Assembly: GCA_964016885.1 (NCBI GenBank)
Contig: OZ024742.1
Span: 241,738,001-241,802,000, forward strand
From: Eledone cirrhosa
Taxonomy: Eukaryota
DNA: 64,000 nucleotides
Reading direction: 5' to 3'
Positions 3,958 to 48,980 of this stretch are shown here, in pieces. The notes below the pieces were generated by a model. That model was not told the DNA's origin. It searched no databases and saw only the letters and a list, made by a program, of their open reading frames with translations. Every line of letters starts with the position of its first letter. Within the stretch, counting starts at the first letter, position 1. Position numbers and translations under genes: made by a program.

Positions 3958-4329
3958 TAGGAAAATGTTCAAGACCCCGATGGCAGAGCTCAAGCCGTTT
4001 CGACGGCTATTTCTGGACTTGGCTATTTCTGAGTCGGGGTCTTGAACATTTTCCTATTACCCACTCTACTACCCTAAGTATTGAGTGCTTTATGGTCCAC
4101 CTGGTTCCTTACCACACTTCCTTCGTTATATATATATATATATATATATATATATATATATATATATAACGAGAATATATATATATATATAACGAGAATT
4201 AGCCGTCGAAACGGCTTGAGCTCAGCTGTCGGGGTCTTACTGGTTCCTATTACCCACTCTACTACCTCAAGTATTGAGTACTTTGGTGCGTTATGGTCCA
4301 CCTGGTTCCTTACCACATTTCCTTCGTTA
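3958..4329 (+). mobile_element. Two copies of a (TA)n-embedded short repeat (family B) carrying the 3' half of an HHR
   Basis: Shared tail ttacccactctactacc...ttccttcgtta and motif tagccgtc-GAAA-cggc-ttgagctca-gctg-TC-ggggtc. Further copies near 7695, 20279, 27659, 30437, 35160 and 48790. Confidence 0.7.
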
Positions 4330-4515
4330 TATATATATATATATATATATATAACTAAATATTAGTATGGCTCGTTGATTACTTAACGAATAAACGAATA
4401 CAATTTTACAATAGATTAGAAGCACTCAAAAAGAAAAGTTTTCCTGGAGTTTTTAATATTATTCAATACTGGAATTGAATAATCAAGACCGTAGCGGTAT
4501 GTCATATATCAAATC

Positions 4516-4587
4516 ATATATTTTATCTGATGAGGACGTACTGAAAAACCAACACAGTACCTTTGAAATATATATAATAAAGTATAT
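4516..4587 (+). ncRNA. Type I hammerhead ribozyme (family A)
   Basis: atatattttat-CTGATGA-ggacgtactg...cagtaccttt-GAAA-T-ATAT-ATA-ataaagtatat; 11-bp stem I with one G-U; upstream ggtatgtcat shared with the 948 copy. Confidence 0.8.
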
Positions 4588-7147
4588 ATTTTGATTATGA
4601 GAATATCTTTCATTTGTTAACATTTTGAATAATATATATATATATATATATATATATATATATATATAATTGTTTTCGGAAGTGGGAAGGAAGAGATACA
4701 TAATTAAATGAAGCACGGAATACATCTGTAGAGAACGTTCATACATATTTTTTGTAGAAATGACTACTATAGAAGTCTTTTCTATATATATTTACAAAAG
4801 CACAAACACATATCTATATATATACATATATACATATATATATATGTATATATATATATATACATATATGTATATATATATATATATATATGTGTGTGTA
4901 TGTGTGTGTGTGTGTGTGTGTGTGTGTGCGCGCGCTCGCGTGTGTGTGTGTGTGTGTGTGTGTGCGTGCTTTGTTACTGTAGAATCCTTGACCATGAAGT
5001 AAAAATAGCGGATACTCAAATGAAACTGAGTAGGGCAAAGCTAAGTAGAAAGAAAATAGGAAAATGAAGTGGTTTTATGAGATCATTGCTTGAACAACCT
5101 ACTCTTTCATCAGCATTAACTGCTTCAGAAACGAATGTAAATCAACTCGCCAGTGTATTAGGAGGATAATTAAGAGACTCTCTAGAAGCATATGTTTATT
5201 TGAAAGAGGCAGAATATATTAAAATTGTGTATATCTAAAAACACGATAGCTCTGGACAGCCTACAATCAGGTGTGCTTCAGTATTACAATGAAGATTCAT
5301 TGAAGTTAAATAATATATGAAAAATGTAATTTTTTCAGATGTTTATTTGACTTAGTAAATAGTAAATGCTATTGATATGTGTATTTAATTACATAAGTAT
5401 TTCCACACTAGCACAAGTATTGGACTTTCCACTCTGTACCAGAACGTGTGATGTGCAATTTCATCAAGAACAGCTTAAAGGGCATCTAGATGGCTCTGAC
5501 TGAAAAGGAGTGGATTTTAAGTCAGTAGACGCATTTGGACACAGACTGCGGTTCGATCAATCTCTGTTGTGTCACCTGATTTGTGATGTATGTTAAATAA
5601 GCCGAAGTAGATAGGATCTCCAGGATACAACATTTACAGGATACTACGGATGGAAATCAGAGTATTTCTATCCGTACATGTACTGAGTATCTGTAATTAC
5701 TTGGACGACGCTACTCTTTTCTTAAAATAAGTCTCAAGAATCTCCCATGCGTTCTGGTGGCCAAAGGTTATTTATTATTTTTTTTTCAAATTAGGGTGCG
5801 TTCTCGAGGACTTGGCATCTTCAGAGCCGGGAAATACGGTAACTATAATTCAGTTCAACTGCTCAATTTCCGATAGTCTTCTATTAATGAAACTGTCTCT
5901 GCCCATCCATCCATCTGTAAACCATTATTTACCAAATGTATTGACCTCTCCAATTTCTCCCTCATCATTGGAAGATGTAATTTATTCACAGACACATCAT
6001 AGCTGTGTATAAAAAGATATCTGCTGAAGCTGTCTCTTTCCAGATTAGCCATGATTGAGCAGATATTAGATTAAATGCATTCCAAATATGACAATCGCAT
6101 TTGTGCTTCACTACAATTGTGTATCCAATATCTACCCACATTTTCAAGGTAATATGGTGTGGTTTAAGTGCAATTTCGCTGCTTTTTCTAAGTCAAACCA
6201 TGTCGTAATGGATGCTAAAACGAAACAGAAAAGTTAGTTATATGATAAGGAAGTATAAATAGTATACCTACGATATTCGTCATGGTATTGGCAGACGTAT
6301 TAATATGCTTCATAGTTTTAGAAGCAAACACAAAGATTAATTAGAATTAAATGTTTTAATGAGAAACAAAAATGAAAGCTTGCCGGCTACCTTTTCCATC
6401 TTAATTTGATGTTATTCAAAGTTAAATGAAAAATAATTAAGATTTAATGAATGCGATATATATATTCTTCAAGATATTGCATGACTAACGTTTTTTCTCT
6501 GTGTGTCGTGCAAAGTTTACTTTATAAATACATTAGAATGACAAGTATGAAACAAAAGAAGACATTGATTTTTTGAGGAATGACGTGATAAAGTAAATCT
6601 TTTATCTTCACTTTTTAAATCAGAATGCAGGGAGGGATTTGCTTGTAAACATTCAAGAAAGAGGGTGATATACTGTAGCGTTTTACCTACAACTCATTAA
6701 TAACATTAGGCATGGCATAAACCTTAAAACACATTCTATCAACTTGAAGTTAAAGAGGATATTCTTAAATAAATTCCACTAGGCGATGATGTGCTAGGCT
6801 TGTACATTATTTATTGTTTCTGGCCGGGCGAAAAGCAAAGTTAACTGCGACGGGATTTGAACCAGAATGCAACAACCGGAACAAATACTGCAAGGTATTT
6901 GCCTAATGATCTAACACTTCTACCAATTCATCACTGATATCTCAAACACTTTATGGTAACTGTAGGGTATAAACAACACTAAAACCGTTGTCTTTTCTTA
7001 GATTAGCATCATTGACTCCACCGCGTCATTTAAATATAGATTTGAGCGTGACGGAGGTCGTCAAGTTTACCATCTTCGCTATAATTTGATAATTTACTTT
7101 GAGATGTAAGTCTCTAGTGTATTTACCTCTCATATGTATGAAATAAT

Positions 7148-7311
7148 TGTTTCTACCTTTGGCACAAGGCCAGCAATTATCCAGTACATTACTGGTACTT
7201 TATTTTATCGACACCGTAAGGATGAAAGGCAAAGTTAACCTCGGCGGGATTTGAACTCAGACCGTAAAGAGACGTAACTATGCTGGAAAGCATGGCGTCC
7301 GACTCTCTACT
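7148..7311 (-). mobile_element. tRNA-derived SINE, 5'-truncated
   Basis: B box GAGTTCAAATCC and body tttgcctttcatccttacgg..tcgataaaataaagtaccag (resembles the Deu/Nin-type SINE core); many near-identical copies in the window. Confidence 0.85.
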
Positions 7312-7504
7312 GATGAAATAATACATATTAGTTTGATACATCATAGAAAATAAACATAATTGTTTACATCCAGATATTTCGTAAACTCTTTTCACATAAG
7401 CGGACAATATTCACTAATTTCCACTTTACACAAAACTTTAGAAGTCTTATATAATCCTAATTTTTGCTTGTCATAACTTGATATAGTGTCAAGTTCCAGC
7501 TTTG

Positions 7505-46799: not shown

Positions 46800-47017
46800 G
46801 ATGCAACATTTTTGGAATGTTTTACATATTTTTACTGTTCCATTAATGGATTGTACTTGTCCTTTCTGTTCCTGTGAAGCCTAGCTTCTCAAGATTTGTA
46901 TTGAGGCAGTTACTAACATACCCCAGTGCCCCAATAATCACAGGCATAATTCTGAAGGTGTAATCAGGGGGGAGTATCTGCAGATTTCTCACCAGTTCTG
47001 CATAAATATTCTCCTTG
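46800..47017 (-). pseudogene. R4/Dong-like non-LTR element, RLE C-terminal fragment
   Basis: KENIYAELVRNLQIL.PDYTFRIMPVIIGALGYV...LEKLGF, then GTVKICK. Confidence 0.7.
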
Positions 47018-48074
47018 TATGTATGTATGTATGTACATACGATGTGCACAGTATTTCCTCACTTTAAAAAATATCTTCACGCACAGGCATTGCACGATAG
47101 AATTAATTAATAATTATTAATAATGGTATATCGTGCAATGGCCATATTCGCTAACGAGGGGGCAGCCATCATATGTGTATGTAGGTATATATTTTTGAAT
47201 GTATGTCTGTATGCACCTATGTGTTTGTGGTAGTGGCCATCTTTTTTTTTTATATATAACAGGCTGATTGAGTTGGGGCGTATAACCCAAGTAATAGTCA
47301 CTGTTGTAACTAATTATATATATATATATATATATATATATATATAAATACATAAACGGAGAAAGCTAATAGCGATACTCTGGCCAAATTCCAACTCACT
47401 CAACAAACATTAGGAAATATCTGAGTATATTCCTAATTAAACGTTCGGTGTGCTAACTAATTATATTGTGTGGAGAATTGGCTGTATCATTTGATATGAG
47501 ATATATCAAATATATCACTTCCCAGACGACTCGTTTCATTATAAGATTTCTACAAGGTGGGTGAAATTATACCAAATTATGTAGAAGCTTGTATAAGATC
47601 AACAGATACTCATACAAGTGGGCTCTTATAATTCTTTAGTGGGTGCCCAATAATATTAATATTGATAACCAAATCAACATCAATATTTAGCGATAATCAC
47701 CATCGGTGCTTGAGGGAGCTGTTAGGTTGATAGTCCAGCAGTTCTAAAGAAAATCTCACACTGTCTCGAAAATAGGAGGAAGGAGACTACCGCCAAAAAT
47801 AATACATGCGCAGGTCGTTGAATTCCGATACGAATTCAAGCCACGTGCTTAGAACTCAATTGGATATGAAAAAATAACCATATGTGCGTTTCGCTTAATG
47901 ACACGTAGATATTTTCTCGGGCAAAATAACAGAATGAGATACAAGAACAAACAGTCAATATTCATATACAAAATAAACAAAGAGAATCATACCTTATATC
48001 GGGAAAGTTCATATCTGTTGCACCAAGAGTAAATATATAAATATTTATATATATATATATATATATATATATAT

Positions 48075-48780
48075 AATAGCCTGCACATCGGCGTTTGTAT
48101 GAGCCTTGGCCTCCGGATCTGTGAACCACACCAATGTCGCTGTGGATCCACCGTGGACTCTTTCGGCCTCCACCAGCTTTCCTGTCGCCACAGTGCTGGC
48201 CGCCTTCCTCGCCATACTGCCCTCAACGAGGTCATAAACCATGGCTTGGACGCTGCAGGCTTCCCTCTCAAGCTCGAGCCGGTGGGGCTGGATCGAGGGG
48301 ATGGCAAAAGGCCAGATGACATGACCATCTTCCCGTTCCGCTGTGGCAAACCCCTCGTCTGGGATGCCACTTGCACCGACACTTTCTGCAGCCGCAACCT
48401 GGTGCAGTCTGCGACTGACCCAGGTTCTGCTGCACGTCGGGCTGAGGAGGCCAAACTCTTCAAATACCGGTCGCTCTTCGACATGTTTGCGATTGTACCT
48501 TTGGCAGTGGAGTCTTCTGATGTCCTCGGCCCTAGGGCTACTTCCCTACTCACCACCATAGGCGCTGAGCTGGTCAGCCGCAGGTTTGAGCCCCGCAAGT
48601 TGGAGTGGCTTTTCCAGCGCGTCTCCCTTGCCGTCCGCCGGGGAAACGCCTTCTCTATTCTGTCCGCCTGGGCTGTGGAGAGACAAGCCGATTATATTAC
48701 GAATTCTGTTGAATAGTCTTAAATACTTCATAACTCGTCAAATGTGCATGTATAGTACATAGAATATTAGTGTATATATA
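48075..48780 (+). mobile_element. CRE-clade non-LTR retrotransposon 3' end (zinc knuckle plus restriction-like endonuclease), ORF 48099-48716
   Basis: LGL..CRCG...GLHQLSC...RH..LN...EP.GL...DGKRPD....GKPLVWDAT...AE..K..KY....PLAVES...FQRVSLAVRRGNA; uninterrupted frame, GC-rich, flanked by TA. Confidence 0.88.
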
Positions 48781-48789
48781 TAGATGAAA

Positions 48790-48980
48790 CGATACAGGAC
48801 CCCGACTGCTGAGCTCCGGCTGGTTAGACAGCTAGATTGGAGTTCGGATGTAGCTGTCGAAACGGCCGGAGCGCAGCGCTCGGGTCCTGAATCTTTTCAT
48901 ATTACCCACTCTACTACCCCAAGCATTGAGTACTCTGGTGCTTTATGGTCCACCTTGTATTTTACCACACCCTCTTTGTT
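48790..48980 (+). mobile_element. Family B element with 5' palindrome
   Basis: gacagcta...tagctgtcGAAAcggccggag plus the family tail. Confidence 0.7.

What the first reader, a model, noticed from the sequence alone, without database searches (positions are those of the whole stretch)
3958..48980. Family B: copies fold back at the predicted ribozyme stem II
At least 8 fragments share one tail. Those reaching the HHR carry only its 3' half (stem II strand, GAAA, cggc/gctg stem III with a GAGCTC palindrome, GUC). In copies at 7774-7882, 20370-20470 and 48795-48895 the missing CUGANGA half is replaced by an inverted copy of the 3' half, centred on the putative stem II loop; 3958-4056 is a similar, partly deleted palindrome. 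Inference: the cDNA snaps back on the ribozyme hairpin and self-primes, so the ribozyme fold dictates where PLE inversions form.
Basis: partly seen in the sequence, partly recalled or inferred. Interest (0 to 1): 0.72.

Follow-up and report, generated by a model that had tools for sequence, protein, structure and literature searches.

The report
Penelope palindromes turn at RNA start
These palindromes are stub copies of a very abundant Penelope-like jumping gene, and their mirror point piles up at a likely capped start of the element's RNA, inside the loop of a predicted variant hammerhead ribozyme rather than on its stem, which suggests two separately primed DNA copies are joined head to head.

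Summary
The palindromes are real. Family B is the end segment of a Hydra-type Penelope-like retrotransposon: 40,572 exact tail matches, and an intact 719-aa copy whose end matches two window copies. Long copies carry the missing ribozyme half, with a U3-A8 core (UUGANAA) rather than CUGANGA, and stem II covaries between subfamilies.

Breakpoints cluster: 123 of 237 arm ends fall in 14 nt within loop II. Fold-back on stem II is not supported:
- Its predicted junction matches 2 times genome-wide, against 6,790 matches at the hotspot.
- The tail-less arm reaches further 5' in 41 of 91 pairs; self-copying that arm cannot make a tail.
- Many centres have no loop.
- A second family turns 5' of its ribozyme.

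The hotspot is an initiator-like motif often preceded by a non-parental G (G 4,142 vs A 706), a likely reverse-transcribed cap. Best reading: two cDNAs from the two start sites run off the RNA's capped 5' end and are end-joined. No RNA data tested this.

This scan reached the same reading earlier on other DNA of this genome; my searches did not find it in print.

The parts
3957..4019 (-). Inverted short arm, subfamily B1, positions -40 to +20, in (TA)n
4020..4031 (+). Junction: 11-nt stretch repeating the neighbouring arm, then a non-parental G (4031) before the A(-40)-GTC start of the tail arm
   Evidence: sequence directly; cap origin of the G inferred
4032..4128 (+). Tail arm with internal deletion between the GTC at -39..-37 and the GTC at -2..0; the same junction recurs in L161 and a similar one in L195
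4195..4329 (+). Tail arm of young subfamily B2 (-35 to +99), 100% identical to the rc of 7695-7829; preceded by only about 5 nt of inverted tail end
7695..7829 (-). Tail arm B2 (-35 to +99), 100% identical to the matching part of the intact copy L164
7830..7882 (+). Short arm B2 (-32 to +20), blunt junction, ends at fixed site S1 in (TA)n
20279..20424 (-). Tail arm, older subfamily B3 (5' end about -36 to -41)
20412..20472 (+). Diverged short arm B3 (alignment overlaps the tail arm at the centre)
27658..27731 (+). Tail-only fragment (+26 to +99) with a few bases of inverted short arm
30482..30523 (-).
30524..30622 (+). Tail arm starting at +1 (predicted cleavage site) or joined through the stem III inverted repeat; compatible with snap-back-like pairing on stem III
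   Evidence: sequence directly
34952..34986 (+). Solo short arm B3 (-12 to +22)
35159..35223 (-). Solo short arm B3 reaching -42
48784..48837 (-). Short arm B3 ending at -33
48838..48981 (+). 3-nt junction ending in a non-parental G, then tail arm B3 starting at A(-40)
   Evidence: parent base T in B3 long copies
41223..41317 (.). Comparison, not Family B: Family A palindrome between the two predicted cleavage sites; it turns 5' of a canonical CUGAUGA hammerhead

Best explanation
These are stub insertions of a Hydra-type Penelope-like retrotransposon in (TA)n, likely made when two cDNAs, primed from the two cut target strands at two fixed sites in the RNA leader, both run off the RNA's likely capped 5' end inside the loop of a predicted hammerhead and are then likely end-joined head to head.

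Shown: element identity; fixed 3' ends at +20 (S1) and +99 (S2); one tail per insertion; the hotspot at -33 to -46; the non-parental G at -41; loop-less and insert-bearing junctions; arms of one insertion share variants.

From the literature: two RT start sites flanking the tail, nicking and extension of both strands, uncleaved RNA as template (PMC11167929); a promoter inside the pLTR (PMC2377424); an untemplated 5' G as a possible cap copy (PMC9341517).

Inferred: the hotspot is the transcription start (A at -40, with a probable second start near -44); both cDNAs come from one RNA or one particle; host end joining closes the junction and trims it back to -33..-39.
For: Arm ends: 3' ends peak at +20 (76) and +99 (87) among 403 hits, 170 of which were a satellite later removed. 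91 of 92 head-to-head pairs have one tail arm and one short arm. 123 of 237 arm 5' ends lie at -46..-33.

Single template, two primings: the tail arm is longer in 39, the short arm in 41 and they are equal in 11 of 91 pairs. Arms are identical at +6..+16 in 56 of 83 pairs, against 12.2 (max 23) in 5,000 shuffles.

Extra G: of 21,897 exact arms reaching -40, 4,142 have G at -41 and 706 have A; the parent base is T or C. In loci not chosen for that base, G occurs in 18 of 78 truncated arms (only 3 explained by the partner arm; A in 6) and in 0 of 25 long copies. Both arms carry the G in 5 of 49 insertions against 1.0 expected (by-eye count; P=0.003).

Promoter-like sequence: TTAGTY at -42..-37 is kept across B1, B2 and B3 while the rest of loop II diverges. 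Family A turns at A(-44) in CCAGATT, 30 nt after TATAAATA, 5' of its ribozyme; truncated A arms have G in 8 of 20, long copies in 0 of 10.

Two-cDNA joining: three junctions join a B arm to the 5' end of a third family (L001, L019, L027).
Against: The transcription start is inferred from DNA only. The TATA-like motif is weak in B1/B2 and absent in B3; initiator and TATA consensus are recalled.

Most arms reaching -40 continue with parent bases (T or C at -41 in 17,049 of 21,897, by subtraction), so a second start near -44 must be assumed. Some extra G may come from templated junction inserts, and C is also common as a free base (13, partly parental in minor subfamilies).

13 of 91 junctions fit snap-back by an automated rule, including a recurrent -34/-40 join on a 4-bp mini-hairpin. 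The 5' ends of the two arms are not significantly correlated (rho 0.16, P=0.13). 87 of 237 arm ends lie 3' of -33 and need trimming or early termination. The cross-family junctions could be later deletions between neighbouring palindromes. The sample is from one chromosome arm and favours young copies.
Confidence: 0.62

Rival explanations
1. One reading: a single cDNA snaps back on the ribozyme's stem II hairpin and self-primes, so the ribozyme fold sets the inversion point.
For: Centres lie in loop II in Family B. Stem II is a real conserved helix: 3 pairs with changes on both sides. Arms of one insertion share variants. Self-priming at inverted junctions was proposed in PMC3846280.
Against: 0 of 91 pairs reach the stem II 5' strand. 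The predicted junction has 2 imperfect matches against 6,790. The short arm is the longer one in 41 of 91. Zero-loop centres in 16 of 61 (by eye). Family A and a third family turn 5' of their ribozymes.
Confidence: 0.03
2. The RNA ends at the cap as in the best reading, but many palindromes form by a U-turn: one cDNA folds on a 1-4 bp local hairpin and copies itself, and the endonuclease or target annealing fixes the S1 end.
For: 13 of 91 junctions have at least 2 nt overlap and room for a loop. There is a recurrent -34/-40 junction, and stem III joins such as window 30523 and L120/L371. Arms are concordant. PMC8557442 suggests endonuclease resolution makes the tail.
Against: It cannot give a tail when the short arm holds the more 5' sequence (41 of 91). 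It does not give an extra G on both arms as mirror images. 21 of 91 junctions leave no room for a loop.
Confidence: 0.13
3. The hotspot is a pause or roadblock (RNA structure, bound protein or limited early processivity) on a longer RNA, not an RNA end; two stalled cDNAs are end-joined.
For: The hotspots of Families A and B lie at a similar distance from the cleavage site (about 40-44 nt). A small hairpin is predicted in loop II. About a quarter of arms reaching -40 are long copies that continue seamlessly (25 of 103).
Against: The structural context differs between families, and a third family turns about 115 nt 5' of its core. A pause does not predict a G-specific extra base (4,142 vs 706) or initiator/TATA geometry in Family A. 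Arms of 60 and 139 nt stop at the same place.
Confidence: 0.17
4. The palindromes are secondary: longer inverted insertions lost their centres by later deletion or cruciform repair.
For: Long inverted copies exist (L135, L164). Junction inserts look like repair.
Against: Sharp hotspot; 100%-identical young arms with blunt junctions; mirror-image extra G; loop-less centres are what repair is generally thought to remove (recalled).
Confidence: 0.05

Closest known systems
Hydra clade of Penelope-like elements, incl. Hydra-1_Obim (PMC8557442; passages, section 11 and supplement hits read)
   Same: Single ORF with C-terminal GIY-YIG-type region; RW(K/R), DKT, CxCX5C, CxxC and CxH motifs; (TA)n target; inverted 5'-truncated copy; one-sided tail; hammerhead in the end repeat.
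   Different: A different family from Hydra-1_Obim by eye (protein start and ribozyme differ; not aligned). Unit about 3.1 kb, tail 79 nt rather than 30-40, U3-A8 core with a 9-bp stem II and 32-nt loop rather than a canonical core.
PAc (Poseidon, Anolis) in vitro mechanism (PMC11167929; parts 1-2 of 4 read)
   Same: Two RT start sites bounding the tail; both target strands nicked and extended; AT-rich target; uncleaved RNA as template.
   Different: The parts read do not address inverted copies, where they turn, cap copying or joining of two cDNAs.
Adineta vaga Penelope inverted pLTRs (PMC3846280; passages read)
   Same: Head-to-head inverted pLTR, palindrome at the junction, optional tail, TATA and initiator-like motifs in the pLTR.
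   Different: Interpreted there as self-priming on an antisense template; the junctions here fit two sense-templated cDNAs better.
U3-A8 minimal hammerheads of Schistosoma Cercyon PLEs (PMC4209133; parts 1-2 of 4 read)
   Same: U3-A8 core, long stem II, short stem I, palindromic loop III.
   Different: Here stem III has 5 bp, loop II is 32 nt, and the likely transcription start lies inside loop II.
L1 twin priming and the cap-derived 5' G (PMC9341517 passages; twin priming recalled)
   Same: Two target strands prime cDNA; untemplated G at a full-length 5' end.
   Different: L1 inversions copy adjacent, non-overlapping parts of one RNA; here both arms copy the same 60 nt.

Membership tests
Penelope-like elements (EN+) | Single ORF with RT and GIY-YIG endonuclease | tested here: met
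   L164 ORF 719 aa, with VIY...YIG near the C end. Atlas hits at 0.96-0.99 include GIY-YIG and RVT_1 clusters. Pfam gave 0 families and PDB nothing, so domain calls rest on motifs, the atlas and by-eye likeness to Hydra proteins.
Penelope-like elements (EN+) | Partial tandem (pLTR), inverted truncated copy, one-sided tail | tested here: met
   L164 and L135; 91 of 92 pairs have one tail.
Hydra clade | RWK motif, DKT, CxCX5C linker, CxxC and CxH around E/N, no CCHH | tested here: met
   Read from the L164 protein: RWR (K to R), SDKTG, CNCPDRSIC, CNLC, CKH; definition. Absence of CCHH judged by eye.
Hydra clade | (TA)n insertion preference | tested here: met
   Flanks.
Hydra clade | Length generally under 3 kb; canonical HHR | tested here: inconclusive
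   Unit about 3.1 kb; the core is U3-A8, not canonical.
Hydra clade | Groups with Hydra RTs in a phylogeny | not tested
   No reference proteins held as tool sequences; no tree built.
Type I hammerhead ribozyme | Three helices around the core | tested here: met
   The MFE fold of L164 and L061 gives the junction; L219 does not; z-score -0.21, no better than shuffles. On 15 hand-picked copies 92.7% of cells pair and 3 stem II pairs change on both sides; stems I and III have no two-sided change.
Type I hammerhead ribozyme | Core with a 3-8 pair, GAAA and NUH | tested here: met
   53 long-copy regions: U3-A8 44, U3-G8 5, C3-A8 3, 1 spurious; N7 varies over all four bases. The regex fixed TGA-N-R-A, but the loci were chosen without the core and show it.
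Type I hammerhead ribozyme | Self-cleavage | not testable with these tools
   About 5-6 of 237 arms start at +1/+2, too few to call.
Pol II core promoter at -40 | Capped RNA 5' ends at the initiator | not testable with these tools
   Indirect DNA signature only.
Stem II snap-back product | One arm keeps loop II and joins within the stem II 5' strand | tested here: not met
   0 of 91 pairs; 2 imperfect genome matches.

The most novel reading that the evidence does not exclude
Penelope-like elements replicate through an LTR-like strong-stop step. Both target strands are primed in the 5' leader of the mRNA, RT runs 60 and 139 nt to the cap, and the cDNA then jumps to the matching sequence at the RNA's 3' end, regenerating the pseudo-LTR. 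Failed jumps give the tens of thousands of stub palindromes. In Family B the start site lies inside the ribozyme loop, so the leader copy lacks its catalytic half and only the 3' copy can cleave, defining the RNA 3' end and a 40-nt terminal redundancy.
Probability: 0.25. Interest if true: 0.82.

Novelty: new variant of a known kind. Interest (0 to 1): 0.5.

Why it matters
How Penelope-like elements, the closest relatives of telomerase RT, build inverted ends and regenerate pseudo-LTRs is stated as open in PMC2377424 and PMC8557442. If the turning point is the capped RNA end, thousands of genomic stubs become a base-resolution record of RT start sites, RNA 5' ends and joining. That replaces the published antisense self-priming idea with a two-primer model that the existing in vitro system can test.

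Tried and rejected
Searches that gave nothing useful:
- Rfam on the window: the 150 of 387 rows shown were microsatellite-driven matches with no hammerhead; the other 237 were not shown.
- Repeat finder: swamped by microsatellites.
- DNA search of the own genome: empty; the tool skips common words.
- CUGANGA half upstream: 48 chance-like matches, rejected.
- Pfam and PDB: no useful match for the ORF.
- Earlier notes near the window or by sequence: none.

Tests that were inconclusive or negative:
- Run-off at the cleavage site as a main route: 11 of 237 automated ends at 0..+3, about half artefacts on inspection.
- Correlation of the two arm ends: not significant.

Known weaknesses of the mapping:
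- The first walk with 70 references over-extended arms and was replaced by 9 references. There the -47 bin (11 arms) is largely artefact and some of the 42 'insertions' are early stops in diverged copies.
- Locus L180 (satellite) was dropped before the counts.
- The sample for the base at -41 covers 72 arms, not all 100 places listed.

Not-in-print claim: it rests on paper searches (open-access library only). PMC12910113 and bioRxiv 10.64898/2026.07.22.740005 (passages) added nothing; the preprint's supplements could not be seen. Older subscription papers on Penelope were not searchable and may note pLTR 5' ends near the start site.
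Full report
Setting. The window is G000:C3:241738001-241802000 of a 3.0-Gb animal genome, rich in (TA)n. Numbering: C17 of the ribozyme GUC = 0, next base = +1.

Observation. The cited palindromes exist. Each pair reads (TA)n, an arm ending at +20 (S1), a centre, an arm ending at +99 (S2, the tail), (TA)n, in either orientation. A 29-nt tail motif matches 40,572 times in the genome, 0 for the reversed control.

The element. L164 holds an intact copy: an inverted long arm, a partial tandem and a 719-aa ORF. 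Its end is identical to window 4195-4329 and 7695-7829. The protein has RWR, DKT, CxCX5C, CxxC and CxH and, by eye, no CCHH: the marks given for the Hydra clade (PMC8557442 section 11). Pfam and PDB gave nothing; atlas neighbours at 0.96-0.99 include GIY-YIG and RT clusters. No tree was built. By eye it is not Hydra-1_Obim.

The ribozyme. CUGANGA upstream gave 48 chance-like matches. Long copies chosen by a loop motif, without the core, show ACCCC, UUGAAAA and a stem II 5' strand. Over 53 long-copy regions, positions 3/8 are U-A in 44, U-G in 5, C-A in 3 and 1 is spurious, and N7 takes all four bases (that regex fixed TGA-N-R-A). On 15 hand-picked copies, 92.7% of cells pair and three stem II pairs change on both sides between subfamilies; stems I and III show no two-sided change. 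The MFE fold gives the three-way junction for L164 and L061 but not L219, and is no more stable than shuffles (z -0.21). U3-A8 cores are known from Schistosoma PLEs (PMC4209133). Cleavage is untested.

Breakpoints. The sample was 120 loci chosen by tail motifs (satellite L180 dropped) plus the window, giving 237 arms. 5' ends: 123 at -46..-33, 27 further 5' (11 of them in an artefact bin at -47), 52 at -32..-1, 11 at 0..+3 and 24 beyond. Uniform breakpoints are therefore rejected. Of 92 pairs, 91 have one tail and one short arm. The two arms are identical at +6..+16 in 56 of 83 pairs against 12.2 in shuffles, so both come from one template or particle. Their 5' ends are not significantly correlated (P=0.13).

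Against stem II snap-back. No arm of 91 pairs reaches the stem II 5' strand. The predicted junction matches 2 times, both imperfect, against 6,790 for both arms reaching -40 (an insertion can count twice). The short arm is the longer one in 41 pairs, the tail arm in 39, equal in 11; a tail-less cDNA cannot make a tail by self-copying. By rule, 13 of 91 junctions fit some snap-back, 21 leave no room for a loop, 15 are blunt and 42 carry inserts (partly walk artefacts). Among the 61 insertions listed, 16 have a perfect zero-loop centre (by eye), as expected if two 3' ends anneal through a self-complementary dinucleotide. Family A, with a canonical core, turns 5' of its whole ribozyme; a third family turns about 115 nt 5' of its core.

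For a capped RNA end. A(-40) lies in TTAGTY, kept across three subfamilies while the rest of loop II diverges. A TATA-like stretch lies 29 nt upstream in B2; it is weak in B1 and absent in B3. Of 21,897 exact arms reaching -40, the next base is G in 4,142 and A in 706, where the parent has T or C. In loci not chosen for that base, G occurs in 18 of 78 truncated arms (3 explained by the partner arm; A in 6) and in 0 of 25 long copies. Both arms carry it in 5 of 49 insertions against 1.0 expected (by eye; P=0.003). In Family A the turn is at the A of CCAGATT, 30 nt after TATAAATA. There, 29 of 39 listed arms reaching that A with a further junction base have G next (4 ambiguous; two insertions may be duplicates; some may be templated inserts, by eye); by script the count is 8 of 20 truncated and 0 of 10 long arms. 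An untemplated 5' G is read as a possible cap copy in L1 (PMC9341517). Against: most B arms continue to -41..-44 with parent bases, which needs a second start near -44, and the start site is inferred from DNA only.

Mechanism. In a lizard PLE, RT starts at two sites bounding the tail, both target strands are cut and extended, and uncleaved RNA is the template (PMC11167929). The Drosophila element's promoter lies in the pLTR (PMC2377424, parts 2-3 of 4 read). Put together (inference): each target strand primes one cDNA in the RNA leader, at S1 and S2; both reach the cap; end joining, with trimming and templated inserts, fuses them. Three cross-family junctions fit joining of independent cDNAs, though later deletion is possible. 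In the bolder form, long copies arise when the run-off cDNA transfers to the 3' repeat; this was not tested.

Standing. The element is a new family of a known clade, and the inverted-plus-tail structure is known; self-priming was proposed before (PMC3846280). The cap run-off, two-primer reading was not found in nine paper searches (listed under Tried and rejected). I wrote it down; one search then showed unreviewed notes of this scan with the same reading on other DNA of this genome, which are not independent support.

Verdict: observation partly confirmed, ribozyme-guided snap-back not supported, best explanation 0.62, interest 0.5.

Noticed in passing
window 10858-10900, 23228-23270, 41223-41317, 55264-55302: Family A: a second (TA)n-targeting family with a canonical CUGAUGA hammerhead, TATA and initiator-like motifs, and the same short-arm/tail-arm stubs; 12,247 exact tail matches. 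Its ORF was not retrieved.
   Followed up: partly
L001, L019, L027 about 1250-1520; long copies in L126, L127, L178: Third family with a CUGAAGA hammerhead; its stubs start near CCAGTT about 115 nt 5' of the core, and three are joined head to head to Family B arms.
   Followed up: partly
L180 (G000:C1:14247200-14257199): Tandem satellite of about 63 nt, over 160 units, derived from the Family B tail (+21 to about +65).
   Followed up: no
L010 about 1500-1560 (minus strand): Same-orientation chimera: Family A 5' ribozyme half fused to a Family B 3' half at the shared GAAAC, suggesting a template switch.
   Followed up: no
window 4032-4036, L161, L195: Recurrent deletion that skips the 37 nt between the GTC at -39 and the GTC at -2 (L195 similar), possibly RT hopping over stem III.
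   Followed up: partly
L139 303-2537, L197, L186: Another Hydra-like family with an open 740-aa ORF, 41% identical to L164.
   Followed up: no
L121 1-2475: Helitron-like helicase ORF pieces next to a Family B copy (identity recalled from motifs).
   Followed up: no
window 32423-33060: Proline-rich-looking tandem repeat with a unit of about 105 nt.
   Followed up: no
window 34396: A further hammerhead-like CTGAAGA...GAAAC repeat, also seen in L040.
   Followed up: no
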